Positions 2,866 through 56,115 of a stretch of 64,000 nt of DNA are shown piece after piece (position 1 is the stretch's first letter; the number at the start of each line of letters is the position of its first letter). The stretch is from Verrucomicrobiota bacterium (GTDB taxonomy: Bacteria > Verrucomicrobiota > Verrucomicrobiia > Opitutales > Cerasicoccaceae), in contig JBCBUK010000017.1 of assembly GCA_039818205.1 (NCBI GenBank), positions 13,048-77,047 of the forward strand, read 5' to 3'. The position numbers and the translations under genes are program-made. Under the pieces are notes generated by a model. The model was not told the DNA's origin, made no database searches, and was given only the letters and a program-made list of their open reading frames with translations.

Positions 2866-3063
2866 ATGGGATTTCACGAAGTTTAGGAGACGGCGGACTT
2901 ATGGACTACTAGACAAAAGGCCTACCTTCACTATGTCCACTAGAGGATATATGTCAGTTCCGAGTTCGGGATTTCCGGTCTATGGGGCCATTTTTCCGTT
3001 TTTTCACAAAAACGTGGCGACTCGGCATCGACACGAGGGTGCATTCGCCTTAGATCCCGAGCC

Positions 3064-3225
3064 ATGTCACTCGTCGATATACTACTGTGCCTCTTTTTAC
3101 CACCGATCGCAGTCGCCGTGCGCAAAGGAATCGGTATGGATCTGGTCATCAACATCGTATTACTGTTGATTGTTCCCTACATCGGTGGGGTTATTCACGC
3201 TTTTTGGGCATTGAATAGAAAATGA
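3064..3225 (+). CDS. YqaE/Pmp3 family small membrane protein (53 aa)
   Basis: Below the ORF-track cutoff. Translates MSLVDILLCLFLPPIAVAVRKGIGMDLVINIVLLLIVPYIGGVIHAFWALNRK, matching the family pattern (LPP.AV...G ... G.IHA.W). Confidence 0.9.
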   Translation: MSLVDILLCLFLPPIAVAVRKGIGMDLVINIVLLLIVPYIGGVIHAFWALNRK

Positions 3226-3273
3226 TTCTCGCTTCCTGCTGAAAAACTGTCAGCGTGACGCGCTTTTCAGATT

Positions 3274-41146: not shown

Positions 41147-41353
41147 TTCGGAGTTTTGGTTGATGAAGACGGATCGACTAAAGCAGCATAATCGACAATT
41201 CTGAGGACTGCCCCACGGGTTTGCGACCGAAAATATTCGAAATGGAGAAGGAGTAATAAGTGACGAAGCAGCGAGGTATGAGCAATGAATGTGACGCAAG
41301 CGTTACGTAGAATGGGTTTGAAAAGCCGCGAAGCCTATTACATATCGAACTGG

Positions 41354-42729: not shown

Positions 42730-44151
42730 CTAGAGCGATCGAACAAAGGTTAGCAATTTTCGGCGTTCGTCCTCGCTGAGGTTTACGTAATAGTCGCGTG
42801 ATGCTTCAGCTTCCCCGCCATGCCAAAGAATGGCTTCTTCAATGTTGCGGGCGCGGCCATCGTGGAGGAAGTTGGTGTGACGGTTGACCGTGTAAACCAA
42901 GCCGATTCCCCAAAGTGGTGGAGTGCGCCACTCGCGTCCATTGGCTTCAAACGTTGGACGGTTGTCCGCTAGGCCTTCGCCCATATCGTGCAATAACAGA
43001 TCGGTGTAGGGATGAATGATCTGCTTGGATAATTCGGGCATGTCAGCGATGGATCCTGTCTCGAGGGTGTCCACGTGGCACTTAACACATTGAGCTGCGT
43101 TAAAGAGCTCCCGTCCTTCCTGAATCATGCGGTCATCGTGTGAACGCTGGCCGGGCACGGCGAGTGTCTTGCAATAAAACGTCACAAAGTCCAGGATTTC
43201 ATCACTAACCTCCGGATTGCCACCACTTGCAGCGGAGATTTTCTGGGCGTCCATGTGGTTCTCGCTGGGGAAAAGCGAGGAGGTGATGCCGATGTCTCCA
43301 ACAAACGCCGATGCGACCTGCTGGCGAACGGTTGGCTGCTCAGCTTTCCAGCCAAAGCGACCAGTGGCCAGCGATTGCTTCTCGACGTCCCAGACCAAAT
43401 TGCGGCGTCCAGAGATGCCATCTCCATCTGCGTCGTTCGGATCCTCAAGCTCAATCAGGGTTTCTTCCGGAACCGCCTCAAGCAGACCGAGTCCGATCAT
43501 AATTGGAGCGACCCGAAGCGAGATTTCAAGGTTCTCAGGCAGCTCGCCATACTGAGCTTCTTCAAGGCGTACTACGGGTTTGCGCAAACTGTATTTCGAG
43601 CCGTCGGCAAACTTGCCGGGTATCTCGACCCAATCAATCTCGACTTGCGCTTCAGCATTCTGCCCAAGGACACCATGGTTCTGTATCTGGTCGCCGTAAA
43701 CAGGGTGGGGGACCACCCCGCTTCGCTTCAGGCCTTCGACGGGTTCGTCTCCGGTGCGTGGCATGCTTACGCGGGCGAGCATTGAAAGCATCGATTCTCC
43801 TGGCTTCGGCGGACGGCCCCGCCCATCCTTAACATGACAGGATTGGCAGGACATGGTGTTGAACAATGGACCAAGGCCATCCCGGGCTTTAGTTGATGCG
43901 GGTGCTTCAACCCAAAAGCCCTCGAAAAACGAATTCCCAACAAAGAAATTGTCCTTGCGGGTGAAGCTTAGATTCTGTGCTGGATAACCAAATGCGCCTC
44001 GATCGCTACCCTGGACATCCGGAAGGATTATCGTCGTTTTGCCACCGAGATAGGGTGGCTCCGCGCTTGTATTCAGCGACGCAATAAAACTGGTAGCAAC
44101 ACTTGCGGCGACCAGCCCAATACCCAAGGCCTGTTTTCGAAAATGGATCAT
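42730..44151 (-). CDS. Di-heme oxidoreductase family protein (DUF1111/DHOR)
   Basis: GNSFF..FWV.AP.ST.ARDGLGPLFNTMSCQSCH, GRFGWKA, CVKCH, PYTDLLLHDMG, WRTPPLWGIG, FLHDGRAR. Confidence 0.95.
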   Translation of the reverse strand: MIHFRKQALGIGLVAASVATSFIASLNTSAEPPYLGGKTTIILPDVQGSDRGAFGYPAQNLSFTRKDNFFVGNSFFEGFWVEAPASTKARDGLGPLFNTMSCQSCHVKDGRGRPPKPGESMLSMLARVSMPRTGDEPVEGLKRSGVVPHPVYGDQIQNHGVLGQNAEAQVEIDWVEIPGKFADGSKYSLRKPVVRLEEAQYGELPENLEISLRVAPIMIGLGLLEAVPEETLIELEDPNDADGDGISGRRNLVWDVEKQSLATGRFGWKAEQPTVRQQVASAFVGDIGITSSLFPSENHMDAQKISAASGGNPEVSDEILDFVTFYCKTLAVPGQRSHDDRMIQEGRELFNAAQCVKCHVDTLETGSIADMPELSKQIIHPYTDLLLHDMGEGLADNRPTFEANGREWRTPPLWGIGLVYTVNRHTNFLHDGRARNIEEAILWHGGEAEASRDYYVNLSEDERRKLLTFVRSL

Positions 44152-44163
44152 ACAGAACGAAAT

Positions 44164-45381
44164 CTAAAGTTTTGCTAACTCGCTGACCTCCGCGAGGATT
44201 GCTTCTAGCGTAATGGTTTGCTCTTTGAGCGCATCAATAACCGATTCAATGACAGCGCGCTGATCTTCGTTCTCCGGAAGAATCATACGGTCGAATGGCA
44301 TGTCTTTCGCGGCGGTCTCAAGCAGCTTTGTCGTTATTAGCTTGGTCTTTGAGAACTCAAGACGAAGCTTCTCATCAAGGTCCGGGTTGTAGCGGCGAAC
44401 CAAATTGGACAGTGAAACACCACGAATAGTTTCTCCATCAATGTCCTTCTGCTCACCGTAGTAGAGGCTTTGGATGCCCAATGCATTGTAATAGACCGAA
44501 TACTGTGTTGTATCGCTAAAACAGTTTTGCTCCTCCTCCTGGTCAGCGGCAATAAGGGCCACCCGCATGCGCTCGCCCGCCAACTCGGCGTAGCTAAGGC
44601 TGCCCATACCCGTAAGAATTCGCCAGAGTTGCTCTTCTGATGTAAGCGCTACGAAGTCTTTATAGTAACGTCCGTTTGGACTCCAATCGAGTGCCATGAA
44701 CTGAAGATCTTGCACCAGAACGCGACTAGCAGCCGAGAGATACTTGCTGCGGCGGTCACAATTTCCGTTGGTGCAGGCGCTTCCCTTGAGGTAGTCAGTG
44801 TATGAACGTTTCCCGCCAACCGTTTGGTCCTCGTTTAGGTCTTGTCCCCACAACAAGAACTCAATGGCATGGAAGCCAATGGCAACATTGGTTTCGATAT
44901 CGGTCATCCGTTGGGATGGGGCTTCTTTTGGGTCAGTTCCTGACTGGTATTCGGCAATGATCTCATCGCGAATCGGGTAAGCAGCAATTCCAATGATATT
45001 GTGTCGCGCATGCGGGTTGCCGACGTGATAGACGTAATTGTCGGCGACGTAGTCGATATAGCCTTCATCTAAGGGCCAGGCATTTACCTTACCTTCCCAA
45101 GCGTCCACGTTTGGATTGCCAAAGCGAAACACTTCGGTGAGCGAGTAGGTGTTGTGCGCCTTTAGCCAAGCATCTTTTGCCGCCTGGTGGGATTCAGCAT
45201 CCGGCTTGTTCAAGAAATCGTTAACGCGCTCTTGAAGTTCTTTAGCGTCACGCATCGAAATATCATATCGGGCGTGTGCGATTGCAGCGTAGTGCAGGGC
45301 GGCACGTTGAGAGAACCTTCCGGCACTGGCTTCGAGATATACCACCGTAAGTAAGGCTATTATAATTAGAGGAAATCTCAT
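44164..45381 (-). CDS. Imelysin family iron-regulated protein (IrpA/LruB-like)
   Basis: TEVFRFGN, VNAWPLDEGYIDYV, GFHAIEFLLWGQD (GxHxxE), ELAGERM..AL, EQNCFSDTT. Confidence 0.93.
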   Translation of the reverse strand: MRFPLIIIALLTVVYLEASAGRFSQRAALHYAAIAHARYDISMRDAKELQERVNDFLNKPDAESHQAAKDAWLKAHNTYSLTEVFRFGNPNVDAWEGKVNAWPLDEGYIDYVADNYVYHVGNPHARHNIIGIAAYPIRDEIIAEYQSGTDPKEAPSQRMTDIETNVAIGFHAIEFLLWGQDLNEDQTVGGKRSYTDYLKGSACTNGNCDRRSKYLSAASRVLVQDLQFMALDWSPNGRYYKDFVALTSEEQLWRILTGMGSLSYAELAGERMRVALIAADQEEEQNCFSDTTQYSVYYNALGIQSLYYGEQKDIDGETIRGVSLSNLVRRYNPDLDEKLRLEFSKTKLITTKLLETAAKDMPFDRMILPENEDQRAVIESVIDALKEQTITLEAILAEVSELAKL

Positions 45382-45493: not shown

Positions 45494-45713
45494 GTCACAT
45501 ATCGCCGTTTAAAGAGACGAAAGAGCAACGTTCCTGTCCCGAAAGTGTTACGGTGTCGGTAGCGTTACGTTTGTGTTTAACGTAGTACACAAACCTTCAC
45601 TTGAATGTTTCGTGAGCCGGTTGACTTCTTGGAGGGTTGCTACTCTGATTCGCCGCATCGTTTTGAGATCATTCCCTCAAAACCCGGCTGACTCTCTTTT
45701 AAATCACCCAAAA

Positions 45714-48700
45714 ATGCGAAAACATCTCCTCTTAACCCTTTGCCTAGCATCGCTTTGTGGCACGTCCGCGATGGGGCAGGTTTCTGCAACAGCGCAGGAT
45801 CCGACCGTTGCTACGGTCCAAGTTAGACCCTCTGGGGTATCTTCTAGTGCAGACTTCTACGCCGAAGGTAACACCTTCACCGGCTTTGAAGTCTACAGTG
45901 TTGCACGCTTCGTTCTTACCAAGGCTGACTTTGGTTTGGACAGCGGTGACACCATCAACTTGCTGACCTCGGTAGAGATCAACTTTACCCACAACGACCG
46001 TAGTTTTACCACGGGTGATTTGCTTGAGTTATATTTCACGACTCAAAATTTCAACGGCACCTATACTGGTCTCACCTACAACGTCGCCATCTTCGACGGC
46101 GTCGATGCGACTCAGTTCACCAACGCGCCTGTCTCTCTCGGAACATTCGCTTACGTTCCAACTGCGCCTGGTCTCTTCCAATACAACTACGTTGTTGACC
46201 TTTCTGCTTTCGAAGCGGACATCATCGCCAAAATCAACGCAGGCGAAGAAATCAACATCATCCTGGGCGCGGCTGATGCAGCCAACGCAATCACTTTGGC
46301 CGGTTTGAACAACACGTTCGATCCCGGTGACCCAACTATCACGGTTGAAGTCGAAGCAGCCGCTGACAACTCCGCTCCTTCGGTCGCAAGCACGACTCCT
46401 GCGGACGGTACCGTCGATGTTCCAACGGACACCACGCTCGTCATCGAGCTCGACCAGTTCGCCGCTGCTGGCACCGGGTTCATCAATCTTCGTCAAGTTA
46501 GCGACGACGGTTTGGTTGAAGCGATTGATGTGAATAGCGGTGCGGTTTCGATCGACGGTCGCGAGATAAGCATCACCCCGACATCCTTCCTCCCAGAACT
46601 CACCGAGATCTACGTCGAGATTGGCAGTGCAGTCATCACCGACGAAGCGGGTAACGGCTTTAACGGAACTGACGCTTCGAACTTCAGCTTTACAACGACA
46701 ATCGCCAACAGCGCTCCAGTATTCACCGAAACCGGTCCTTTCACCGTTTCTGACAATGCACTCGCTGGCGCGGTCGTCGGCGATGTTGATACCAATGACG
46801 ACGGCTTTACCGATGGTGAGTCCGTTTACAGCATCCTTTCGGTTGAAGACGCCAGCAATATGGCCGTCGGTTTGAATGGTTTTAAAGCAACCAGCATCTT
46901 TACAATCGGTGAAACCGTCTCTGGAACAACCGGAGCACTCAACCCAACGACTGCAGGCGACTATACTCCCGTCGGTATCCTCGACGGTATGGGCGCTTAC
47001 AAGCTCGATGCCGCAACGGTTCGGGTTCTCGCCAACCACGAGCTGCTCCACTTCCGCGGAAACAGCTACGAAGTTAGCAATGGCTCCGGTGGCACCTTCT
47101 CGATGACTGGTGCGCGCGTCAGCTACTTCGACATCGATATCGCGACACGCCAGATCGTTGATTCCGGTATCGCATACAACACCGTTTACGACGCGAATGG
47201 TAACGTTGCTACCGACCTTAGCTTTCAAAACGATAGCCTCAACGGTTTCTCCCGGTTTTGCTCCAGCGCGCTCTTCGAAGCTGAGCAGTTCGGCTCCGGT
47301 CGCGGACTTGCCAGTCGCATCTACTTCACGGGTGAAGAAGACGGTTCCGGCTTCAACCTGATCGGTGGCGCTGAGTGGGCGCTTGACCCAGCGACCGGTA
47401 ACTTCTGGGCCGTTCCTGCCATGGGCCGTGGTGCTTGGGAAAACGTTACTGAAGTCGACACTGGTTTGACCAACTACGTCGCGTTCATCTTGGCTGATGA
47501 CTCTTCTCCGTTCAACGCTGACACAAGCGATCCTGAAAACGAAGCTTCTCCACTCTACCTTTATGTTGGTGAGAAGAATCCTTCCGGTGACTTCCTCGAG
47601 CAAAACGGTCTCCGCGACGGTAAACTCTATGTTTGGGTTGCTACTAGCGGTAACACCCTTCCTTCTCAATTCAATGGTGCTGGTTCCTCCGAGCCAGGCA
47701 CTTGGGTAGAGATCGACAATTCTCCCAATCTCGCTCAAGCATCGGCCGACGGCTCGACTGGCTTCGACGAGTATGGTTACCCAACTCAGCGTAACCTCTG
47801 GACTCAAGCGGAAGCCGCCGGCGCATTCGGTTTCTCCCGTCCAGAAGACTTGGCTGTCAACCCAGTTGATGGTTCTGAGTTCGTTCTCGCTTCGACCGGT
47901 GTTGACACCTACGACATTGATCTTGTTTCTGGCAATGGTGCGGACACTTTCGGCACCATTTATGTTGGTGTTGTTGACTTCAATGTTTCCGGCGAACCAA
48001 CTGCAGGAAACCTGACCATCCTTTATGATGGCGACGAAGATACCGCCAACCGCGCATTGCGCAGCCCAGACAACTTGGATTGGGCCGATGACGGTTTCAT
48101 CTACGTTCAAGAAGACGAAGCTGAAGAAGACACCGCAAGTGGTGACGAAGTTCTCTTTGGTGCCGGTGCGGTTAATCCAAACGAAGCAGGTATCGTTCAG
48201 ATCGATCCTGCAACGGGTGATATCCTCCGGGTCGCCAACGTCGACCGCAGCATAGTTCTCGATCCCTCGATCGCAAACCCACTTGACGCTGTTGACGTCG
48301 ACGCCGGTTTCGCGGGCGAGTGGGAATCCTCGGGTATCCTCGACGTTTCCAACCTCTTCGGCGAATTGCCAGGAACCCTGTTCATCTTCAATGTTCAGGC
48401 ACACGGCATTGAAGATCAGACCAACTTCAACGCCGCATCCCGGATTGTTGACGGTGATCTCGTTGAAGGCGGTCAGCTCCTCTTCTTGGAGCGCAAGTTC
48501 GACTCCATGCTCGAAGCACTTGGTAGCAACGAAGCCGAAGCAATCTTCACGATTGGTGAGACCTTCGCTGGCACCGCCGGCGCATTGAACCCAAACACTG
48601 CGGGCGACTACACACCCGTTGGTATCCTCGACGGTCTTGGCGCCTACGAGCTCGACGCACAAACGGTTCGGGTTCTCGCCAACCACGAGCTTCTACACTT

Positions 48701-51700
48701 CCGTGGTAACAGCTACGAAGTTAGCAATGGTTCCGGTGGCACCTTCACAATGACCGGTGCCCGCGTTAGCTACTTCGACATCGACAAGTCGACTCTTCGG
48801 ATCATCGATTCCGGCCTCGCATACAACACCATCTACGATGCCAACGGTAACGTTGCCACAGACTTGAGCTTCCAGAACGATAGCCTCAACGGTTTCTCCC
48901 GCTTCTGCTCCAGTTCACTATTCGAGCCAGAACAGTTCGGTCCTGGTCTCGGGTTGGTTGATCGCATCTACTTCACAGGTGAAGAAGATGGTTCCGGTTT
49001 CAACTTGATTGGTGGCGCCGAGTGGGCACTTGACCCAGCAACCGGCAACTTCTGGGCGGTCCCTGCTATGGGTCGCGGTGCATGGGAAAACGTAACTCAG
49101 ATCGATACCGGTTTGACCAACTACGTTGCATTCATCCTTGCAGACGACTCCTCACCATTCGATGCGGATCCAAATGACCCAGAAGACGAAGCTTCACCAC
49201 TCTATCTCTATGTTGGTGAGAAGAATCCTGCTGGTGACTTCCTCGCTCGCAATGGTCTGCGTGACGGAAAGCTTTACGTTTGGGTTGCCGACAGCGGTAG
49301 CCGCGTTCCTTCTGAGTTCAACGGTGCTGGCGCATTCGAAGCTGGTTCTTGGGTAGAAATTGACAATTCACAAAACCTCGGCCAAGCATCCGCTGACGGT
49401 TCGACCGGTTTCGACGAATATGGATACCCAACTCAGCGTAATCTCTGGACACAAGCGGACGCAGCGGGTGCATTCGGTTTCTCCCGTCCGGAAGACTTGG
49501 CTGTGAATCCGTTTGACGGATTTGAATTCGTATTGGCTTCAACGGGTGTAGACACCTACGACGTGGATCCAGTCTCCGGCAACGGCGCTGACACTTTCGG
49601 CACCATCTATGTTGCTCAGGTTGAGTTCGATGGTTCCGGTGAACCAATCGCTGGCGACCTAACCATCCTTTACGATGGCGATGCCGACCCAACTCGTGCC
49701 TTGCGCAGCCCGGACAACCTGGATTGGGCAGACGACGGCTTGATCTACGTCCAAGAAGACGAAGCTGAAGAAGACACCCTCAGCGGTGACGAAATTCTCT
49801 TCGGTCCAACTGCGATCAATCCGAACGAGGCTGGTGTTGTTGTGATCGATCCAGCAACTGGAATCGTGACTCGCGTTGCGAACATTGATCGTAGTGTCAT
49901 CATCGACCCAACGATTGCCAACCCACTCGACGCGTTCGACACCGACGCGGGTTCTGCTGGCGAATGGGAATCTTCGGGTATCCTGGACGTTTCGACCCTC
50001 TTTGGTGAGCAACCAGGCAAACTCTTCATCTTGAACGTTCAAGCGCATGGAATCGAAGACCAAACCAATGTTAACGGTGCATCACGCATCAACGACAATG
50101 ATTTGGTTGAAGGTGGTCAGTTGATCTTCATGTCCATCGACTCGGCACAGCCAACCCTGAACTTCGCTGATGCATTTGAAATTAACCCAAGCACCGGTGT
50201 CATCACTTTGGTCAATCCATCCGAGATTGATTCCGATCGCTTGAAGTATATCCGCTTCGTAGTCGAAGCTGATGACGGTTTGAATGCTCCGGTGACTGAA
50301 ACGGTTGATATCTTCATCAACGACGATCCAATTGCTGAACCGGCTGAAATTCGTGTAGCCAGCTTCAACACTTCGTTGAACCGCAATGCTGCCGGTCAGT
50401 TGATCACTGACTTGAGCACTCCGAGCAACTCGCAGGCTCAGCAAATTGCTGAAATTATTCAGCGCACGAACCCAGACGTCATTTTGATCAACGAGTTCGA
50501 TTACGATCCAAACGGAACTGCGATCGACCTCTTCAAGCAAAACTACCTTGAGATTCCTCAAAATGGCCAAGCTCCGGTTTACTACGGATACAGCTACAAT
50601 GGCGAATCCAACACCGGTATCGCATCTGGCTTCGACCTCGACAACAACGGAAGCGTTGGCGGCGGCGGTGACGCATTCGGTTTCGGAAACTTCGAAGGTC
50701 AGTTTGGTTTCATCGTCCTCTCGAAATATCCAATCGTTGAAGACCAGGTCCGCACGTTCCAGAAGTTCCTCTGGAAGGACATGCCAGGAGCGTTGCTTCC
50801 TGCCGATCCGCTCGATAGCGATGGAAATTTTGACGTGGATAACTACTACACCACCGAAGAACTTGATGTGTTCCGCCTCTCTTCGAAGAGCCACTGGGAC
50901 ATTCCAGTCTGGGTTAACGGTGAGGTTATCCACGCGTTGGCTAGCCACCCAACACCACCCGTGTTCGATGGTGCCGAAGATCGCAACGGAACGCGTAACC
51001 ACGATGAAATCCGCTTCTGGGTCGATTATGTGAACAACGCGGCCTACATCTACGATGACTTTGGTCAGACCGGTGGTCTTCCACTCGAATCTGCGTTCGT
51101 TATCCTTGGTGACCAAAATGCCGATCCGTTCGACGGTGACAGCACAGCAGGTGCGGCTAATCAGCTCGTCGATGGCCCATGGGTCAATGTAAGCGTGACT
51201 CCAAGCAGCTTGGGCGGGGTGGAAGATTCCACCAACGATGGTGGTAGCAACCTGACCCACCTTGGTGATCCAGCGTTTGATACGAGCGACTTCGGTGACC
51301 CTCCCGGTAACCTCCGCGTTGACTACGCTTTGCCTTCGTCGAACTTGACCATCAACTCGGCTGGTGTGTTCTGGCCAGAAGTTGGCGAATCCGGTGCCGA
51401 TCTAGTAAGCGCAACCGACCACCGCTTGGTTTACGTCGATCTCTCGACCACACTTGAAGTTGGTTCGTTCGTTCTTGCGGGTGACGCCACGGTTGGCATT
51501 GATGCGACTCAAGGTAACCTCGCACTCATCCTCGTTAAGGCTGATGGAACCGCATTCGACTCCACCGCTCTTGACAGCTTGAATCCAGGAAGCCCAGCGC
51601 TCGGCGAGATCACCGTTGGCACGATGATCGGTGACTTCATGGTTGCTGGTTACTTGGAAGTTGGACCAAACGGAACGATCAACGTTGACGGATTTGGTTA

Positions 51701-54700
51701 TGACTTGCAGCCAGGTGCTGCCGGAAGTCTGATTTCGGTTGGCGATCAGTTCGGTTTCCTCGTGTTCGACAATCTTTTGTTCGAATCTGATGGTGGAACT
51801 GATCTCGGAACCGGTTCGTTTGATCCGTTCAATCTGATTACCGATCCGGCGTTCATAGTGCAGGAAGGTCAGCAAACTCACGGCGACGACATTCCAACGA
51901 TCTTCCGCGGTGACTTCACCTTGCAGATCCTCCACGCATCCGACCTCGAAGGTGGTGTTGAAGCAATCAAGCTTGCTCCAAACTTCGCGGCGATCGTAGA
52001 CGATCTCGAAGACAACAACCCAGCTGATGGAACAATCATCCTCTCCGCAGGTGACAACTACATCCCTGGTCCGTTCTTCAACGCTGCAAGTGATAGCGCC
52101 CTCCGTGGGCCATTACAGGCTGCCTACCAAGAGTTGTTCGCAACCGATCTTGGTGGTTCTGCTGCCGATCTCGATAACATCCGCGAAGGTCGTGGCCGTG
52201 TCGATATCGCGATCATGAACATCATCGAGTTCAACGCCTCGGCGGTCGGTAATCACGAGTTCGACGTAGGGTCGGACGCATTCGAGGGCATCATCGAAGA
52301 AGACGTTCGTGGCTCAACACTCGGAGACGTCCGTCACCTGGGTGCTCAGTTCCCATATCTATCTGCTAACCTCGACTTTAGTGGTGATAACGATCTGGGC
52401 AACTTGTTCACCAGCGATATCTTGCCAAGCACTGACTTCGCTCTATCGCCATCGCAAGCAATTGCTGGCGGCAACCCACCGAAGCTGGCTCCAGCCGCGA
52501 TTGTGGACGTTGACGGTGAGCCAGTCGGCGTAGTCGGTGCAACGACTCAGCTGCTCGAGCAGATCTCGTCGCCAGACGGCACATTCGTTATCGGTGGTTC
52601 GACGGTCGATATGACGGTTCTCGCAGCCCAGTTGCAGCCGGTGATCGACGAAGTTCTCTGGGGTCTGGACGGTGTTCCAGGAACATCCGACGATGTAAAG
52701 ATTGTCATCGTGGTTTCTCACCTCCAGCAGATCGCGCTTGAGCTCGAACTTGCTGAGCTCTTGACCGATGTTGACGTAATCATTGCGGGTGGCTCTGACA
52801 CTCTGCTTGCTGACAACAACGATGCTCTCCGCCCAGGAGACGTTGCTGACGATACTTATCCTCTGGTAGCAACGGACTTGGACGGTAACTCGACCCTGAT
52901 CGTGAGCACCGATGGTGAATACAGCTACGTTGGCCGTTTGATCATCGAGTTCGGCCCAAGCGGCACGGTTAACCCAGCCATCTTGGACGACACGCTTAAT
53001 GGTCCAGTCGCGACAACCGACCAATCGGTTATCGACCTCTACGGTGAGGCCAATATCGCTGATGCGATCGCAGCAAGCGTTAAAGGTACTGAAGTTAAGG
53101 AACTGGTCGATGAAGTCTCGGGCATCGTAAACGCCCTCGACGGAAACGTCTTCGGCTACACAGCCTTCTTTATCGATGGTCGCCGCGCAAGCATCCGCAC
53201 CGAAGAAACCTTCATGGGTAATTTGACGGCAGATGCTAACCTCTGGAAGGCGCGTCAAACCGACTCCTCGGTTGTGATCTCCTTCAAGAACGGCGGTGGT
53301 ATCCGCGCTGAGATTGGTGCAATCGACGGCCTGACCGGCGACCTCCTGCCTCCGGCTCCAAATGCTGACGCAGGAAAGCCAGCTGGTGCGATCTCTGAAC
53401 TCGATATTCAGAATACCCTCCGGTTCAATAACGGCTTGGTCCTCTTGGATCTGTCCGGACAGGATATCCTCGAAATCCTCGAACATGGATTGAGCGATAG
53501 CTTCGAAGGTAACACTCCAGGTGAATTCCCGCAGATCGGTGGTTTGCAATTCGCATTCACACCTCCGATGGCCGGTAACGGTGGCCCTGACACTCCAGCT
53601 GAAGTTCGTTCGTTCGGTTTGATCGATGAAACTGGCCGGGTCGTTGAGGTCCTCTTTAAGGATGGTGTATTCTTGAACGGAGCGGACACCCGCGAGTTCA
53701 AGATCGTAACCTTGAACTTCCTCGCCGAAGATGGTTCGACAATCGATGGAATTGGTGGAGATGGTTATCCATTCCCAGCCTTGGCTTCGAACTTCGTTGA
53801 CCTCGGAATCGGGGAGCAACAAGCCCTTCAAGAGTTCTTGGCGGCATCGTTCCCAACTCCTGAGCTTGCGTTTAGCGAAGTGGAGCGCGGTCCTGAGCAA
53901 GATCCACGAATTCAAAACCTCGAGTATCGCTTCGACACCATCGGAACTGACATTCCAGTCGTTCCTGCAGGTGCGCTTCGTCTGACTCCGGTCGCGACAT
54001 ACGAGTCTGGTATCTTCGACGAATCCGCAACTGAGATAGTGGCCTTCCACGCACCAACGGATCGTCTCTTCGCGGTTAGTAGTGCACCTGGCGAATCTTA
54101 CGTCCGCGTTCTGGACGCAAGCGACCCAGTCGGTAGTGGTCTCCTACAAGTTGACACGATTCCAGCGCCTCTTGCTGATTTCGAGCCAAACAGTGTCGAT
54201 ACCTTCTCTGGACCTCTGGGTGACGTGGTTGCCATCGCTTGGTCCGACGAAACCGGTGCAAACGGCCGTGGTCGCGTAACGCTTCACGACCCAGCAACGC
54301 TCGCTTCGCTTGCACCAGCAATCGTAGGTGGATTCTTACCAGACATGCTGACCTTCTCACCTGACGGTGAAAAGCTGGTGGTTGCCAACGAAGGTGAAGC
54401 CGATGGCGGCGTGAACCCGGTTGGTTCGGTCTCTGTGATTACCTTCGGTGCCAATTATGGTGCCCCAACTCACAACGAGATCACCTTCGATCGCTGGAAT
54501 CGTCGCGAGAACGTCCTCCGTGCTCGTGGTGTTCTCTTGACTCAGATTGACGAGGGCGAAGCTGCCAACGTAGCCGAAGACCTTGAGCCTGAGTATGTCG
54601 CGATTGACTCGAATAGCCAATACGCTTGGGTTGCGCTTCAAGAAGCGAACGCGGTAGCCGTTGTTGACCTTGTTCGCCTTGCGATCCGCAATATCTTGCC

Positions 54701-55529
54701 GCTCGGAACTGAGAACTACTCGGTCACCCCGCTTGATCCAAGTGACCGCGACGAAGGTATCGATGATGAGCCAATCAACGTTCAAACCTGGTCTGGACTC
54801 TACGGACTCCGCCAACCTGACTCGATTGCCCTCGTTGAGTTCAATGGCCAAAACTACTTGTTGACCGCCAACGAAGGTGACGCTCGCGACTTCGAAGAAG
54901 ATCGCTTCAAGGATGCTATCCTCGACCCATCAATCGAAGGTGTGTTCGGTCCATTGCAGGAAGATGACAAGCTCGGACGCCTCGAGGTAAATCTCTCGGC
55001 ATCTGACCTGGACAACGACGGTGACGTCGACGTTCCAATGGCTTACGGTGGCCGTTCGATGACAGTGTTTGAATCCCCTGTTGTGGGTCGCTTCCGCGCT
55101 GTTAGCGGAACCAGCACCAACGGAAATAACGACATTGAGGAGTATACCGCTTCGATCTTCTCGACGGTGTTCAACTCGAACAATGACGACAATGACTCAC
55201 TCGAAAGTCGCTCCGATGCCAAGGGTGCAGAACCAGAGGCTCTCACGGTTGGTGAGATCGATGGTGTGAAATATGCCTTCCTCGGTCTTGAGCGCCAGAG
55301 TGCAATCATGGTCTATGATGTCACTGATCCACGTTCACCTCAGTTCCACAGCTACGTAAGCAACCGTAACTTCATGGTTGATGCGGACACTGCGGAAGCC
55401 GGTGACCTTGGCCCAGAGGGCATCGAGTTCATTCCTGCGGATGTCTCGCCACTTGGCGTTCCAACCATCGCCGTCGCCAACGAAGTCAGCGGAACGGTTA
55501 CACTCTACCGCATCGACTTCGGCCTCTAG
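45714..55529 (+). CDS. Giant secreted multi-domain phosphatase (~3271 aa): Ig-like, cadherin split by 2x PhoX (DUF839), EEP, 5'-nucleotidase/metallophosphoesterase, choice-of-anchor I
   Basis: Signal peptide MRKHLLLTLCLASLCGTSAMG; PhoX motifs ANHE/RFCS/GEE/WEN/RPED/PDN/QED/ESSG/QAH twice; EEP IRVASFN..NEFDYD..SSKSHWD..GDQNAD..RVDY..TDHRLV; ILHASDLEGG..SAGDNY..GNHEFD..GGIRA; C-terminal EPEYVAI, NEGDARD, GAEPE, DLGPEG, ANEVSGT. Confidence 0.92.
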   Translation: MRKHLLLTLCLASLCGTSAMGQVSATAQDPTVATVQVRPSGVSSSADFYAEGNTFTGFEVYSVARFVLTKADFGLDSGDTINLLTSVEINFTHNDRSFTTGDLLELYFTTQNFNGTYTGLTYNVAIFDGVDATQFTNAPVSLGTFAYVPTAPGLFQYNYVVDLSAFEADIIAKINAGEEINIILGAADAANAITLAGLNNTFDPGDPTITVEVEAAADNSAPSVASTTPADGTVDVPTDTTLVIELDQFAAAGTGFINLRQVSDDGLVEAIDVNSGAVSIDGREISITPTSFLPELTEIYVEIGSAVITDEAGNGFNGTDASNFSFTTTIANSAPVFTETGPFTVSDNALAGAVVGDVDTNDDGFTDGESVYSILSVEDASNMAVGLNGFKATSIFTIGETVSGTTGALNPTTAGDYTPVGILDGMGAYKLDAATVRVLANHELLHFRGNSYEVSNGSGGTFSMTGARVSYFDIDIATRQIVDSGIAYNTVYDANGNVATDLSFQNDSLNGFSRFCSSALFEAEQFGSGRGLASRIYFTGEEDGSGFNLIGGAEWALDPATGNFWAVPAMGRGAWENVTEVDTGLTNYVAFILADDSSPFNADTSDPENEASPLYLYVGEKNPSGDFLEQNGLRDGKLYVWVATSGNTLPSQFNGAGSSEPGTWVEIDNSPNLAQASADGSTGFDEYGYPTQRNLWTQAEAAGAFGFSRPEDLAVNPVDGSEFVLASTGVDTYDIDLVSGNGADTFGTIYVGVVDFNVSGEPTAGNLTILYDGDEDTANRALRSPDNLDWADDGFIYVQEDEAEEDTASGDEVLFGAGAVNPNEAGIVQIDPATGDILRVANVDRSIVLDPSIANPLDAVDVDAGFAGEWESSGILDVSNLFGELPGTLFIFNVQAHGIEDQTNFNAASRIVDGDLVEGGQLLFLERKFDSMLEALGSNEAEAIFTIGETFAGTAGALNPNTAGDYTPVGILDGLGAYELDAQTVRVLANHELLHFRGNSYEVSNGSGGTFTMTGARVSYFDIDKSTLRIIDSGLAYNTIYDANGNVATDLSFQNDSLNGFSRFCSSSLFEPEQFGPGLGLVDRIYFTGEEDGSGFNLIGGAEWALDPATGNFWAVPAMGRGAWENVTQIDTGLTNYVAFILADDSSPFDADPNDPEDEASPLYLYVGEKNPAGDFLARNGLRDGKLYVWVADSGSRVPSEFNGAGAFEAGSWVEIDNSQNLGQASADGSTGFDEYGYPTQRNLWTQADAAGAFGFSRPEDLAVNPFDGFEFVLASTGVDTYDVDPVSGNGADTFGTIYVAQVEFDGSGEPIAGDLTILYDGDADPTRALRSPDNLDWADDGLIYVQEDEAEEDTLSGDEILFGPTAINPNEAGVVVIDPATGIVTRVANIDRSVIIDPTIANPLDAFDTDAGSAGEWESSGILDVSTLFGEQPGKLFILNVQAHGIEDQTNVNGASRINDNDLVEGGQLIFMSIDSAQPTLNFADAFEINPSTGVITLVNPSEIDSDRLKYIRFVVEADDGLNAPVTETVDIFINDDPIAEPAEIRVASFNTSLNRNAAGQLITDLSTPSNSQAQQIAEIIQRTNPDVILINEFDYDPNGTAIDLFKQNYLEIPQNGQAPVYYGYSYNGESNTGIASGFDLDNNGSVGGGGDAFGFGNFEGQFGFIVLSKYPIVEDQVRTFQKFLWKDMPGALLPADPLDSDGNFDVDNYYTTEELDVFRLSSKSHWDIPVWVNGEVIHALASHPTPPVFDGAEDRNGTRNHDEIRFWVDYVNNAAYIYDDFGQTGGLPLESAFVILGDQNADPFDGDSTAGAANQLVDGPWVNVSVTPSSLGGVEDSTNDGGSNLTHLGDPAFDTSDFGDPPGNLRVDYALPSSNLTINSAGVFWPEVGESGADLVSATDHRLVYVDLSTTLEVGSFVLAGDATVGIDATQGNLALILVKADGTAFDSTALDSLNPGSPALGEITVGTMIGDFMVAGYLEVGPNGTINVDGFGYDLQPGAAGSLISVGDQFGFLVFDNLLFESDGGTDLGTGSFDPFNLITDPAFIVQEGQQTHGDDIPTIFRGDFTLQILHASDLEGGVEAIKLAPNFAAIVDDLEDNNPADGTIILSAGDNYIPGPFFNAASDSALRGPLQAAYQELFATDLGGSAADLDNIREGRGRVDIAIMNIIEFNASAVGNHEFDVGSDAFEGIIEEDVRGSTLGDVRHLGAQFPYLSANLDFSGDNDLGNLFTSDILPSTDFALSPSQAIAGGNPPKLAPAAIVDVDGEPVGVVGATTQLLEQISSPDGTFVIGGSTVDMTVLAAQLQPVIDEVLWGLDGVPGTSDDVKIVIVVSHLQQIALELELAELLTDVDVIIAGGSDTLLADNNDALRPGDVADDTYPLVATDLDGNSTLIVSTDGEYSYVGRLIIEFGPSGTVNPAILDDTLNGPVATTDQSVIDLYGEANIADAIAASVKGTEVKELVDEVSGIVNALDGNVFGYTAFFIDGRRASIRTEETFMGNLTADANLWKARQTDSSVVISFKNGGGIRAEIGAIDGLTGDLLPPAPNADAGKPAGAISELDIQNTLRFNNGLVLLDLSGQDILEILEHGLSDSFEGNTPGEFPQIGGLQFAFTPPMAGNGGPDTPAEVRSFGLIDETGRVVEVLFKDGVFLNGADTREFKIVTLNFLAEDGSTIDGIGGDGYPFPALASNFVDLGIGEQQALQEFLAASFPTPELAFSEVERGPEQDPRIQNLEYRFDTIGTDIPVVPAGALRLTPVATYESGIFDESATEIVAFHAPTDRLFAVSSAPGESYVRVLDASDPVGSGLLQVDTIPAPLADFEPNSVDTFSGPLGDVVAIAWSDETGANGRGRVTLHDPATLASLAPAIVGGFLPDMLTFSPDGEKLVVANEGEADGGVNPVGSVSVITFGANYGAPTHNEITFDRWNRRENVLRARGVLLTQIDEGEAANVAEDLEPEYVAIDSNSQYAWVALQEANAVAVVDLVRLAIRNILPLGTENYSVTPLDPSDRDEGIDDEPINVQTWSGLYGLRQPDSIALVEFNGQNYLLTANEGDARDFEEDRFKDAILDPSIEGVFGPLQEDDKLGRLEVNLSASDLDNDGDVDVPMAYGGRSMTVFESPVVGRFRAVSGTSTNGNNDIEEYTASIFSTVFNSNNDDNDSLESRSDAKGAEPEALTVGEIDGVKYAFLGLERQSAIMVYDVTDPRSPQFHSYVSNRNFMVDADTAEAGDLGPEGIEFIPADVSPLGVPTIAVANEVSGTVTLYRIDFGL
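46880..50130 (+). repeat. Tandem intragenic duplication of the PhoX domain, period 1647 nt (549 aa)
   Basis: The identical anchor gttcgggttctcgccaaccacgagct has its gcc at 47031 and 48678; long near-identical peptide blocks with synonymous differences. Confidence 0.95.
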
Positions 55530-55572
55530 TTCTCGCTAGGAGCTCAATACGAAACATCAACGATTGTTCATT

Positions 55573-56115
55573 ATGAAGAAAAGTTTGATCCTCGTCACTG
55601 CAGCGTTTGCTTCCATGCAAACGCTGTCGGCTGGCCTCTTACAGTTGGACAACATCACCGGAATGTTCACCGATGGTCCGCTCACCGGAACTTCGATTGA
55701 GGGTTTCATCGAAGTTGAAGACAATGGTTTGATTACTGGAACCGCCGACACGACACCACTTACCATGGGTGATGGTGTCATCGTCGATCTTGGTTTCGAG
55801 TTTAGCACACCCGATTTGGTGTTCTTCGACCTGTTCGATGACCTGGACCCGTTTATTACCTTTAGCAACGGTCAGATAACTGGCATTGACTATTTCGGTA
55901 GTAATCTTGACGGCGAATTCCTGGATGTGACCTATGACGCGTTCCAGCCGGATCTAGCTTCGGGGATCGCGATTCAGTTTGAGGACGCTTTGGGCAATGT
56001 ATCGACCGGTGTTCTCGACCTGCCGGTCAATGTTCCCGAGCCTTCGACATATGCCTTGATTGCTGGTGTTTCGGCGCTCGTGGTTCTACGGATGCGTCGC
56101 CGGGCTAAGGCCTAA
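55573..56115 (+). CDS. PEP-CTERM sorting-domain protein
   Basis: Signal peptide MKKSLILVTAAFASMQTLSA; C-terminus VPEPSTYALIAGVSALVVLRMRRRAKA. Confidence 0.95.
   Translation: MKKSLILVTAAFASMQTLSAGLLQLDNITGMFTDGPLTGTSIEGFIEVEDNGLITGTADTTPLTMGDGVIVDLGFEFSTPDLVFFDLFDDLDPFITFSNGQITGIDYFGSNLDGEFLDVTYDAFQPDLASGIAIQFEDALGNVSTGVLDLPVNVPEPSTYALIAGVSALVVLRMRRRAKA

What the first reader, a model, noticed from the sequence alone, without database searches (positions are those of the whole stretch)
45714..55529. 3270-aa 'Swiss-army-knife' phosphatase combining four catalytic units from three unrelated superfamilies
Seen: one secreted chain with 2x PhoX (~46850-50130), an EEP domain (~50340-51440), a calcineurin-like 5'-nucleotidase with C-domain (~51910-53940) and a choice-of-anchor-I propeller (~53980-55520), plus Ig-like and cadherin modules. 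Catalytic motifs look intact in each unit. Knowledge: pairwise fusions of these domains occur in cyanobacterial atypical alkaline phosphatases. Inference: a processive organic-P mining enzyme (diester to nucleotide to Pi) in a verrucomicrobium, possibly assembled from cyanobacterial-type modules. I know of no description of this full architecture.
Basis: partly seen in the sequence, partly recalled or inferred. Interest (0 to 1): 0.75.

Follow-up and report, generated by a model that had tools for sequence, protein, structure and literature searches.

The report
Giant fused multi-enzyme phosphate-scavenging protein
A marine verrucomicrobium encodes a real 3271-residue exported protein that strings together five phosphoester-cleaving modules, but it belongs to a large, unstudied group of similarly shuffled giant phosphatases, so it is a new fusion variant and not a unique invention.

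Summary
Window 45714-55529 (+) is one uninterrupted 3271-aa ORF with a Sec-type signal peptide. It carries two PhoX-like propellers (83% identical), an EEP domain, a 5'-nucleotidase-like domain with its C-domain, and a choice-of-anchor I propeller, plus Big_5 and a weak cadherin.

- The host is a verrucomicrobium (RF1 is 81-84% identical to Cerasicoccus).
- The architecture is not unique. More than 100 giant proteins from Planctomycetota, Verrucomicrobiota, cyanobacteria and Proteobacteria shuffle the same modules. About 10-13 of them carry all four types, and one metagenomic protein (67% identity) is fully collinear.
- The motifs are not all canonical. The 5'-NT-like domain has D-x-E in place of D-x-H and GGSD in place of GHxH. 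This variant is conserved across 56 homologues, so it is probably not dead.
- The PhoX units are remote PhoX relatives (Foldseek E=2e-18 to 4A9V).
- I found no cyanobacterial origin. Congeners carry only a 1376-1404-aa 5'NT plus choice-of-anchor I protein at the same locus. Here about 2060 codons with a Planctomycetota-type architecture, plus a divergent imelysin/di-haem pair, lie upstream and are fused in frame.

Most likely function: an exported multi-substrate organic-phosphorus scavenging enzyme. Interest is moderate.

The parts
45714..45776 (+). Sec-type signal peptide (residues 1-21, MRKHLLLTLCLASLCGTSAMG)
   Evidence: Read directly from the translation. There is no RR motif and no canonical lipobox. 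This is my inference; no signal-peptide predictor was available.
45777..46364 (+). N-terminal domain of unknown family (residues 22-217)
   Evidence: No Pfam or NCBIfam hit. It is shared at 36-58% identity with many Verrucomicrobiota/Planctomycetota giant phosphatases and with the paralogue on contig C1.
46365..46697 (+). Big_5 bacterial Ig-like domain (residues 218-328)
   Evidence: Pfam PF13205, E=1.6e-13.
46698..46877 (+). Probable N-terminal half of a split cadherin-like domain (residues 329-388)
   Evidence: Alone it has no Pfam hit. Joined to residues about 1478-1545 it aligns to Cadherin profile positions 3-89 of 93 at 23.1 bits, still below the 28.8 cut-off.
46878..48503 (+). PhoX-like beta-propeller unit 1 (residues 389-930; sole Cys is C516)
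   Evidence: Pfam PhoX 51 bits. AF2 model pLDDT 86. Foldseek top hit is P. fluorescens PhoX 4A9V, E=2e-18, TM 0.58. It is 60-70% identical to more than 1000 stand-alone proteins.
48525..50150 (+). PhoX-like beta-propeller unit 2 (residues 938-1479; sole Cys is C1065)
   Evidence: 83% amino-acid and 79% nucleotide identity to unit 1. dN/dS 0.09. It keeps all columns that are invariant in alignment A1.
50151..50348 (+). Probable C-terminal half of the split cadherin-like domain (residues 1480-1545)
   Evidence: Weak Cadherin hit, E=0.002-0.003. Coverage becomes full-length when joined with residues 329-388.
50349..51443 (+). EEP (endonuclease/exonuclease/phosphatase) domain (residues 1546-1910)
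   Evidence: Pfam PF03372, E=1.9e-25. N1552, E1594, H1745, D1800, N1802, D1870, D1902 and H1903 are invariant in 66 homologues. The AF2 model (pLDDT 67) matches EEP folds 4RUW, TDP2 and sphingomyelinases.
51444..51893 (+). Linker domain of unknown family (residues 1911-2060); the fusion junction lies at its 3' end
   Evidence: No family hit. Only the collinear homologue P0004 shares it. Homology to the congeners' shorter protein starts at residue about 2061.
51894..53153 (+). Variant calcineurin-like (5'-nucleotidase N-terminal) domain (residues 2061-2480)
   Evidence: Aligns to 5'-nucleotidases 2Z1A and CD73. Motifs are D2077-L-E2079, G-D2114, G-N2180-H2181-E-F-D2184, H2336 and GGS2361-D2362. 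The Glu is invariant in 56 of 56 homologues.
53154..53993 (+). 5'-nucleotidase C-terminal (substrate-binding) domain (residues 2481-2760)
   Evidence: Pfam PF02872, E=1e-15. Aligns with 2Z1A, including the GGIR motif.
53994..55526 (+). Choice-of-anchor I propeller (residues 2761-3271), the PhoA-aty/MSP130-type domain; no C-terminal sorting signal follows
   Evidence: PF22494, E=2e-73; NF038117, 389 bits. About 90 columns conserved at 90% or more in 30 homologous domains are retained. The family control rings in Synechococcus elongatus.
44164..45381 (-). Imelysin (Peptidase_M75) gene, divergent from the giant gene across a 332-bp spacer
   Evidence: Pfam E=1.8e-67. It is conserved next to P0004 and next to stand-alone PhoX-like genes in two Planctomycetota. 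It is absent at the congeners' locus.
42730..44151 (-). Di-haem oxidoreductase (DHOR) gene, downstream of imelysin
   Evidence: Pfam PF06537, E=6e-95. Its synteny is the same as for imelysin.
55564..56115 (+). Small PEP-CTERM protein gene immediately downstream
   Evidence: PEP-CTERM motif, E=2.6e-4. It is conserved downstream of the homologous gene in P0004's contig and in two congeners at 58-67% identity.

Best explanation
The gene encodes an exported (Sec) multi-catalytic phosphoesterase that liberates phosphate from several classes of dissolved or polymeric organic phosphorus.

It is a lineage-specific in-frame fusion of two pre-existing enzymes:
1. An N-terminal part of about 2060 residues (unknown N domain, Big_5, two PhoX-like propellers inserted in a cadherin-like domain, EEP diesterase). 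Planctomycetota such as Rubripirellula and Bremerella carry this same architecture as a free-standing protein of about 2100 aa.
2. The genus-resident 'atypical PhoA'-type enzyme (variant 5'-nucleotidase-like domain plus choice-of-anchor I propeller).

Shown here: the modules, their conservation, the fusion history, and the recurrent co-occurrence of these modules.

Inferred: EEP cleaves phosphodiesters (nucleic acid or lipid head-group type). The 5'-NT-like and PhoX-like/COA-I modules cleave monoesters using hard metal ions (Ca2+, Mg2+, Fe3+) and not Zn2+. Tethering the modules keeps diesterase products close to the monoesterases. Expression is probably phosphate-starvation controlled; this was not tested.
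For: - The ORF and all domains are verified.
- Both PhoX-like units keep every family-invariant column, including the only Cys of the mature protein. They are under strong purifying selection, dN/dS 0.09. The model's best structural match by far is PhoX 4A9V.
- The EEP catalytic N/E/H/D/N/D/D-H set is invariant.
- The 5'-NT-like domain keeps GD and GNHEFD in 56 of 56 homologues, and its variant Glu is also 56 of 56. The C-domain keeps GGIR.
- COA-I keeps about 90 conserved columns.
- Rosetta-stone evidence: more than 100 giant proteins in at least four phyla recombine the same modules in many orders and copy numbers. Their additional partners are PhoD, phytase, phytase-like, GDPD and Endonuclease I.
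- Neighbourhood evidence: stand-alone PhoX-like genes sit beside 5'-NT, COA-I+phytase-like and COA-I+EEP genes.
- Fusion history: three congeners have only the 1376-1404-aa 5'NT-COAI protein, between the same LRR_5 and PEP-CTERM genes.
- Literature: recombinant dinoflagellate PhoA-aty is a Ca/Mg/Mn-activated phosphatase that is not Zn-activated and is P-starvation induced (PMC6723241). Proteins annotated as DUF839/putative PhoX, atypical alkaline phosphatase and metallophosphoesterase are among the most P-limitation-induced genes in Nodularia (PMC9846622).
Against: - No enzymatic, expression or localisation data exist for this protein or its close relatives.
- No Pho box was identified, and there is no pst/pho gene in the neighbourhood.
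- The PhoX-like unit is too remote for sequence mapping of the Fe/Ca ligands of 4A9V.
- The 5'-NT-like domain lacks three canonical His positions (two of them metal ligands), and Pfam Metallophos does not detect it.
- The EEP substrate is unknown, and that model has only medium confidence (pLDDT 67).
- I did not test directly that phytoplankton PhoA-aty equals the COA-I domain. It is inferred from PMC4548154, PMC11878542 and the S. elongatus control hit.
- Sequential channelling between modules is pure inference.
Confidence: 0.65

Rival explanations
1. The modules work strictly one after another as a processive relay (diester, then nucleotide, then Pi). In this reading domain order and tethering exist to channel substrate.
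For: EEP is fused with Endonuclease I in the paralogue and in about 60 verrucomicrobial proteins, so a nucleic-acid stream is plausible. A diesterase plus monoesterases on one chain could in principle relay products.
Against: Module order and copy number vary freely among relatives: PhoX-EEP-NT-COAI, NT-EEP-PhoX-COAI, COAI-NT-PhoX and others. This argues against an order-dependent assembly line. The same modules also work as separate neighbouring genes.
Confidence: 0.2
2. The main role is not phosphorus acquisition. The protein degrades extracellular DNA, RNA or nucleotides for nucleoside (C/N) uptake, biofilm remodelling or interference with neighbours.
For: The 5'-NT C-domain is of nucleotide-binding type. 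EEP folds resemble nucleic-acid phosphodiesterases such as TDP2 and APE1. The paralogue carries Endonuclease I. No pho or pst genes lie nearby.
Against: The fusion partners in relatives include phytase, PhoD and GDPD, which point to phosphate release in general. PhoX-like and PhoA-aty relatives are P-starvation induced in other organisms (PMC9846622, PMC6723241).
Confidence: 0.15
3. One or more modules are non-catalytic. The variant 5'-NT-like domain and/or the choice-of-anchor I propeller would serve as Ca-binding, substrate-binding or structural modules, so the number of active sites is lower than it appears.
For: The canonical His ligands are missing: DxH is DxE and GHxH is GGSD. Metazoan MSP130, which carries a COA-I domain, is discussed as a Ca-binding biomineralisation protein and not as an enzyme (PMC11878542). 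No structure or mechanism exists for COA-I.
Against: The replacement Glu, the GD motif and the catalytic N-H...D motif are invariant across 56 diverse homologues. This pattern fits an altered metal site, not decay. Recombinant PhoA-aty has phosphatase activity (PMC6723241).
Confidence: 0.2
4. The giant ORF is an artefact: a misassembly, or a sequencing error that removed a stop codon between two adjacent genes.
For: Congeners have the C-terminal half as a separate gene. The two PhoX repeats could in principle confuse an assembler.
Against: An independent metagenome contig encodes a collinear 3309-aa protein with the same neighbours. The repeats are only 79% identical at DNA level. In congeners no gene for the N-terminal half lies next to the 5'NT-COAI gene.
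Confidence: 0.03

Closest known systems
Atypical alkaline phosphatase PhoA of Synechococcus elongatus PCC 7942 (Ray et al. 1991) and phytoplankton PhoA-aty
   Same: The C-terminal 1210 residues have the same composition: a 5'-nucleotidase-like region plus a choice-of-anchor I type propeller. PF22494 rings in the S. elongatus control genome. Three congeners carry this two-module protein alone at the same locus. PhoA-aty is Ca/Mg/Mn-dependent and P-starvation induced (PMC6723241).
   Different: Here about 2060 extra residues (two PhoX-like units, EEP, Ig-like and cadherin-like modules) are fused in front. I could not align directly to the S. elongatus protein, so the architecture match rests on my knowledge plus the control hit.
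PhoX alkaline phosphatase (P. fluorescens, PDB 4A9V/3ZWU; Fe3+/Ca2+ cofactor; Yong et al. 2014)
   Same: Propeller fold: Foldseek E=2e-18, TM 0.58. Pfam PF05787 is above its cut-off. There is a single invariant Cys, as expected for an Fe-ligating Cys, together with many invariant acidic residues.
   Different: Only 15% identity, and there is no sequence-level hit to any PDB chain even with a profile. The Pfam match covers only profile positions 243-469. This subfamily uses Sec, not Tat, signal peptides (7 of 116 have RR). It forms a distinct subfamily that is highly conserved (60-70% identity across phyla) and uncharacterised.
Giant modular phosphoesterases in sequence databases, e.g. 'choice-of-anchor I family protein' of a Planctomycetota MAG (P0006), 'DUF839 domain-containing protein' of Roseibacillus sp. 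TMED18 (P0012), 'Serralysin C precursor' of Bremerella volcania (P0010)
   Same: They use the same module set at 35-68% identity per module. P0009 and P0010 have exactly the N-terminal-half architecture. P0005-7, P0011-14 and P0097 carry all four module types.
   Different: Order and copy number differ; only P0004 is collinear. Many relatives end in RTX, dockerin or T9SS tails, whereas this protein has no C-terminal sorting signal. I found none of them described in the literature.
5'-nucleotidases UshA / CD73 / T. thermophilus 2Z1A
   Same: Two-domain organisation, GD and GNHEFD motifs, a His of the 'SH' motif, and the GGIR motif in the C-domain.
   Different: D-x-H is D-x-E and G-H-x-H is G-G-S-D, so three canonical His positions (two of them metal ligands) are replaced. 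NCBIfam equivalog scores are far below their cut-offs.
Psip1 (picocyanobacterial high-affinity Fe/Ca alkaline phosphatase, PMC11098088)
   Same: It is another remote PhoX-like propeller with a Sec-type signal that needs Fe plus Ca. This shows that very divergent PhoX-like propellers can be bona fide phosphatases.
   Different: Psip1 is a different family and is not fused. No similarity was tested here, because I had no sequence for it.

Membership tests
PhoX (Pfam PF05787 / COG3211) | Match to the family profile above the curated cut-off | tested here: met
   78.5 bits for the two units together and 51 bits for one unit, against a cut-off of 24. Only profile positions 243-469 of 515 are matched.
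PhoX (Pfam PF05787 / COG3211) | PhoX-type beta-propeller fold | tested here: met
   AF2 model with pLDDT 86 and pTM 0.91. Foldseek top hit is 4A9V, E=2e-18, TM 0.59/0.57; the next hit is at E=8e-5.
PhoX (Pfam PF05787 / COG3211) | Fe3+/Ca2+ cofactor ligands, including the Fe-binding Cys | tested here: inconclusive
   There is one invariant Cys per unit (C516, C1065), the only Cys of the mature protein, plus invariant D/E clusters. No residue-level alignment to 4A9V could be obtained.
PhoX (Pfam PF05787 / COG3211) | Tat-dependent export (typical of characterised PhoX; from my knowledge) | tested here: not met
   The signal peptide has R-K, not R-R. Only 7 of 116 stand-alone subfamily members show an RR motif.
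EEP superfamily (PF03372) | Profile match plus the catalytic set N, E, H/Y, D-x-N, D, D-H | tested here: met
   E=1.9e-25. N1552, E1594, H1745, D1800, N1802, D1870, D1902 and H1903 are invariant in 66 sequences. Fold matches to EEP structures.
ExeM/NucH extracellular endonuclease (NCBIfam) | Match to the NCBIfam model | tested here: not met
   There is no NCBIfam hit for the EEP segment at E<=0.1.
5'-nucleotidase / UshA family (calcineurin-like N-domain + PF02872 C-domain) | C-terminal substrate-binding domain | tested here: met
   PF02872, E=1e-15. Alignment to 2Z1A includes GGIR.
5'-nucleotidase / UshA family (calcineurin-like N-domain + PF02872 C-domain) | Canonical dimetal ligand set: DxH, GD, GNH(E/D), H, GHxH | tested here: not met
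   The set here is D-L-E, GD, GNHEFD, SH, GGSD. The first His is replaced by Glu, and the two His of GHxH by Gly and Asp. Pfam Metallophos gives E=0.13.
Choice-of-anchor I (NF038117 / PF22494) | Profile match above the curated cut-off | tested here: met
   388.9 bits against 300 and 248 bits against 32.
Choice-of-anchor I (NF038117 / PF22494) | A C-terminal sorting signal after the domain (variable 'choice of anchor') | tested here: not met
   The protein ends about 4 residues after the domain, at ...TLYRIDFGL. Instead, a separate small PEP-CTERM protein gene follows and is conserved in four genomes.
Atypical alkaline phosphatase (S. elongatus PhoA / PhoA-aty) | 5'-NT-like region followed by the conserved PhoA-aty (COA-I) region | tested here: inconclusive
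   The architecture is present. PF22494 rings in the S. elongatus control genome. No direct alignment to the characterised proteins was possible.
Atypical alkaline phosphatase (S. elongatus PhoA / PhoA-aty) | Phosphate-starvation-induced phosphatase activity | not testable with these tools

The most novel reading that the evidence does not exclude
This protein is one visible tip of an unrecognised, widespread class of giant, freely module-shuffled extracellular 'phosphoesterase multi-tools' in PVC bacteria, cyanobacteria and Proteobacteria. In this reading its Sec-exported PhoX-like propellers receive their iron outside the cytoplasm from the imelysin/di-haem oxidoreductase pair. That pair is present beside the N-terminal half here and absent from the congeners' locus, and it also sits in operon-like arrangement with stand-alone PhoX-like genes in Planctomycetota. 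This would link Fe and P acquisition at the level of enzyme maturation.
Probability: 0.2. Interest if true: 0.75.

Novelty: new variant of a known kind. Interest (0 to 1): 0.45.

Why it matters
Dissolved organic phosphorus turnover in the ocean is currently accounted for with a handful of single-domain enzyme families: PhoA, PhoX, PhoD, PafA, PhoA-aty and Psip1.

This locus, together with the more than 100 related giant proteins found here, shows that several of these activities are repeatedly welded into single exported chains of 2000-5600 residues. They are joined with uncharacterised subfamilies: a Sec-exported PhoX-like propeller, an EEP subfamily, and a His-poor 5'-NT variant. Gene-centric surveys that count one family per protein would mis-assign such enzymes.

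The congener comparison gives a clean natural experiment. The same locus exists with and without the PhoX-PhoX-EEP half, so one can test what the fusion adds. The metal-ligand changes (His to Glu/Asp, very low His and Cys content) suggest a Zn-independent chemistry, which is relevant to trace-metal limitation of P acquisition. None of this is surprising in principle, so interest is moderate.

Tried and rejected
1. Mapping the Fe/Ca ligands of P. fluorescens PhoX onto the units failed. phmmer and a 22-sequence profile found no PDB chain even at E<=10. An intermediate PhoX-like protein from a related genome did not bridge either. The Yong et al. paper is not held, and two other papers gave no residue list.
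2. Finding a canonical PhoX in the phylum failed. Only 4 of 121 genomes have any PF05787 hit, all of them weak.
3. Pho-box search. Upstream regions of the gene, its orthologue, the paralogue and two pstS-like genes share no convincing motif. A 13-of-15 match between the two giant-gene promoters (AACCTTCACTTGAAT against AACTTTCACCTGAAT) has an expected chance count of about 0.16, so it is only a weak lead. The consensus promoter/terminator scans were uninformative.
4. Codon-usage test for foreign origin of the N-terminal half was inconclusive. Both halves deviate from the genome background, and the genus-resident C-half deviates more.
5. Homology between the PhoX-like and COA-I propellers: hhalign probability 0.1%. 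I rejected it.
6. Recent gene conversion between the two PhoX units: rejected. DNA identity is a uniform 79% with no identical run of 40 nt or more.
7. Imelysin/DHOR linkage as a general rule: not supported. It is present in 4 contexts and absent in 5 further stand-alone contexts.
8. Literature searches for a description of this architecture found none.
10. The listing of cluster members gave no organism names.
Full report
**Observation**

The window holds one uninterrupted reading frame on the + strand, open from 45573 to 55529. The ATG at 45714 is followed by a typical Sec signal peptide, MRKHLLLTLCLASLCGTSAMGQ. I take this as the start, giving 3271 residues. The database copy of the protein (P0003, 3252 aa) was called from the next Met.

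- Big_5, residues 218-328.
- Two PhoX stretches.
- Exo_endo_phos, 1556-1903.
- 5_nucleotid_C, 2490-2675.
- choice_anch_I, 2771-3267 (NF038117, 389 bits against a cut-off of 300).
- Cadherin is only sub-threshold.

Pfam Metallophos does not recognise the N-terminal half of the 5'-nucleotidase unit (E=0.13). That half does align to T. thermophilus 5'-nucleotidase 2Z1A and to CD73.

The protein is acidic and poor in His (0.7%), Lys (1.0%) and Cys. It has four Cys in total: two in the signal peptide and one in each PhoX-like unit.

**The modules one by one**

*PhoX-like units.* Residues 389-930 and 938-1479 are 83% identical in protein and 79% in DNA, with no long identical tracts. dN/dS is 0.09 at dS 1.2. 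This is an old duplication with both copies under strong constraint.

The unit belongs to a very large stand-alone family. There are 1181 hits, the best 120 at 59-70% identity, from Planctomycetota, Proteobacteria, Actinomycetota, cyanobacteria and even an archaeon. They are annotated inconsistently as DUF839, PhoX family, phytase-like or GDPD.

It is a remote PhoX relative:
- Pfam matches only profile positions 243-469.
- No PDB chain is hit by sequence or by profile.
- An AF2 model (pLDDT 86, pTM 0.91) has P. fluorescens PhoX 4A9V as by far its best structural match (E=2e-18, TM 0.58; the next hit is at 8e-5).

I could not map the Fe/Ca ligands. What can be said is that both units keep all 130-odd columns that are invariant in the family. 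These include a single Cys (C516, C1065) and several acidic clusters. Unlike characterised PhoX enzymes, this subfamily uses Sec-type signal peptides.

*EEP domain.* The canonical catalytic residues N1552, E1594, H1745, D1800, N1802, D1870, D1902 and H1903 are invariant in 66 homologues. Stand-alone relatives at 57-61% identity occur in Nostoc, many actinomycetes and others. No NCBIfam model and no PDB sequence matches. A medium-confidence model (pLDDT 67) matches EEP folds in general: 4RUW, TDP2 and sphingomyelinases. It is a phosphodiesterase-type fold with unknown substrate.

*5'-NT-like domain.* It is not canonical:

| Canonical motif | This protein |
|---|---|
| D-x-H | D2077-L-E2079 |
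| G-D | G-D2114 (kept) |
| G-N-H-E-x-D | G-N2180-H2181-E-F-D2184 (kept) |
| 'SH' His | H2336 (kept) |
| G-H-x-H | G-G-S2361-D2362 |

Across 56 homologous domains from the giant proteins, the Glu is invariant (56 of 56). GD and GNH..D are also invariant, and the last motif is (A/G)GS(D/N)T. This is therefore a conserved variant metal site, not decay. I infer a preference for harder metal ions.

*Choice-of-anchor I.* About 90 columns conserved at 90% or more in 30 homologous domains are retained. There is no solved relative and no detectable homology to the PhoX-like propeller.

The literature links this domain to metazoan MSP130, a seven-bladed Ca-binding barrel (PMC11878542). By inference it also links to the 'atypical' PhoA of cyanobacteria and phytoplankton (PMC4548154). 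A recombinant dinoflagellate member of that group is activated by Ca, Mg and Mn but not by Zn, and it is P-starvation induced (PMC6723241). PF22494 rings in the Synechococcus elongatus control genome.

The join aligns to nearly the whole Cadherin profile (positions 3-89 of 93) at 23 bits. This is still below the cut-off, but it is better than the 18.5-19.0 bits scored without the join, and the N-terminal half alone gives no hit at all. The PhoX pair may therefore sit as an insertion inside one cadherin-like domain.

**Is the architecture unique?**

No. A full-length search returned 175 significant giant proteins. I mapped this protein's modules onto the 120 listed.

The same four module types occur in almost every order and copy number. 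Examples are PhoX-EEP-NT-PhoX-COAI-COAI, NT-EEP-PhoX-COAI, COAI-COAI-NT-NT, EEP-NT-COAI in Limnoraphis/Lyngbya, and triple PhoX in Acaryochloris.

- All four types together occur in P0004-7, P0011-14, P0086 and P0097. By the precomputed Pfam sets they also occur in P0018, P0020 and P0030.
- Only P0004 (JGI metagenome, 3309 aa, 67% identity) is collinear.
- Further partners in relatives are PhoD, beta-propeller phytase, phytase-like, GDPD and Endonuclease I, together with RTX, dockerin or T9SS tails. The names for these Pfam accessions are partly from my own knowledge.
- As separate genes, the same modules also neighbour each other. A stand-alone PhoX-like gene lies next to a 5'-NT gene. Another lies between COAI+phytase-like and COAI+EEP genes.

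Recurrent fusion and neighbourhood of this kind is good evidence of a shared task, namely phosphoester breakdown. I found no paper describing these proteins.

**Origin of this particular fusion**

The organism is a verrucomicrobium of the Puniceicoccales. Its RF1 is 81-84% identical to Cerasicoccus species.

In three genomes of the same genus the best match is a protein of 1376-1404 aa. It consists only of a signal peptide, a short N-terminal region, the variant 5'-NT and COA-I, at 64-65% identity. In the two congeners examined in detail this protein lies between homologues of the window's LRR_5 gene (41285-42691) and of the small PEP-CTERM gene (55564-56115). Homology to the window protein starts at residue about 2061.

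Relative to those genomes, the window has about 9.3 kb extra. This comprises the divergent imelysin and di-haem DHOR genes (42730-45381, minus strand) and the first 2060 codons of the giant gene, fused in frame. P0004's contig has the same arrangement, including imelysin, DHOR and the downstream PEP-CTERM gene.

The N-terminal half has exactly the architecture of proteins of about 2100 aa from Rubripirellula and Bremerella: N, Big5, PhoX, PhoX, Cad, EEP, with 60-68% identity in the catalytic modules. PF05787 is rare in the phylum (4 of 121 genomes), and the congeners lack this EEP type.

The 'cyanobacterial modules' idea is therefore not supported. A PVC-internal origin is more likely, possibly Planctomycetota-derived for the N-half with a genus-resident C-half. 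I did not prove the direction of transfer, and the codon-usage test was inconclusive.

In a tree of PhoX units, the two copies of each protein pair with each other and not by position, even for the collinear pair P0002/P0004 (support 100/99 and 97/97). This means either independent duplications or old concerted evolution.

**Function and mechanism**

*Shown:* an exported chain; five conserved modules of four different folds; all under purifying selection; recurrent association with other phosphoesterases.

*Inferred:*
- EEP opens phosphodiesters. In the genome's second giant enzyme (contig C1, 2587 aa: four Big_5, PhoX-like, EEP, Endonuclease I) and in about 60 verrucomicrobial relatives, EEP is coupled to Endonuclease I. 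That suggests nucleic acids as one substrate stream.
- The 5'-NT-like, PhoX-like and COA-I modules then release phosphate from nucleotides and other monoesters.

I consider parallel action on several substrate classes, with opportunistic hand-over of products, more likely than a strict assembly line. The reason is that module order is not conserved.

The metal chemistry is probably Ca/Mg/Fe based and Zn independent. This rests on the ligand substitutions, the very low His and Cys content, and the PhoX and PhoA-aty precedents.

Regulation by phosphate is expected by analogy (PMC9846622, PMC6723241) but was not shown. I found no Pho box and no pho or pst neighbours.

The final location is unknown. 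The protein lacks the C-terminal sorting signal usual after a choice-of-anchor domain. The conserved adjacent PEP-CTERM protein might serve as a partner, which is speculation.

The imelysin/DHOR pair is usually implicated in iron handling (from my knowledge). It is linked to PhoX-like genes in four contexts from two phyla but not in five others. Extracytoplasmic iron loading of Sec-exported PhoX-like propellers is therefore an attractive but weakly supported idea.

**Verdict**

It is a lineage-specific fusion variant within a large, database-visible but unstudied population of modular giant phosphoesterases. It is not a singular architecture, and one of its units has a non-canonical active site. 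I rate it a new variant of a known kind, of moderate interest.

Noticed in passing
window 42730-45381 (minus strand); L086 273-2956; L023 3203-5748; L027 3105-5690: An imelysin (Peptidase_M75) plus di-haem DHOR gene pair lies divergently next to the giant gene. It is conserved next to the 67% homologue. In two Planctomycetota it lies directly upstream of stand-alone PhoX-like genes and co-directional with them. It is absent from the congeners' locus and from five other PhoX-like contexts.
   Followed up: partly
window 46698-46877 and 50151-50348: The two PhoX-like propellers appear to be inserted inside a single cadherin-like domain. The joined flanks align to Cadherin profile positions 3-89 of 93 at 23 bits, which is below the cut-off.
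   Followed up: partly
window 55564-56115; L086 13257-13793; L092 16292-16807; L093 2416-2952: A small PEP-CTERM protein gene of about 180 aa follows the choice-of-anchor I protein in all four genomes examined (58-67% identity). The large protein itself has no sorting signal, so this may be an anchoring partner.
   Followed up: partly
genome contig C1 149524-157287 (L087 3525-11288, minus strand): There is a second giant phosphoesterase of 2587 aa: four Big_5, PhoX-like, EEP and Endonuclease I. It is 43-48% identical to the N-terminal half of the window protein. A PEP-CTERM protein gene lies upstream of it, and an ORF with a weak PhoD-like hit is nearby.
   Followed up: partly
window 45592-45615 and L087 (upstream of the C1 paralogue): The two giant-gene promoter regions share AAC(C/T)TTCAC(T/C)TGAAT. 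In the paralogue TTCAC repeats with an 11-nt period. The expected chance count is about 0.16, so this is only a weak candidate regulator site.
   Followed up: partly
P0002, P0004, P0009, P0010 PhoX-like units (tree): Tandem PhoX-like units pair within each protein and not by position, even between collinear orthologues. This indicates independent duplications or old concerted evolution.
   Followed up: partly
whole genome G000: The 4.85-Mb genome encodes many very large ORFs, including open frames of 16270 and 9002 codons (contigs C1 and C7).
   Followed up: no
L097 (ENA ERZ25072999 contig): A stand-alone PhoX-like gene is flanked by a choice_anch_I+Phytase-like gene and a choice_anch_I+EEP gene. 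This is the unfused counterpart of the giant architecture.
   Followed up: no
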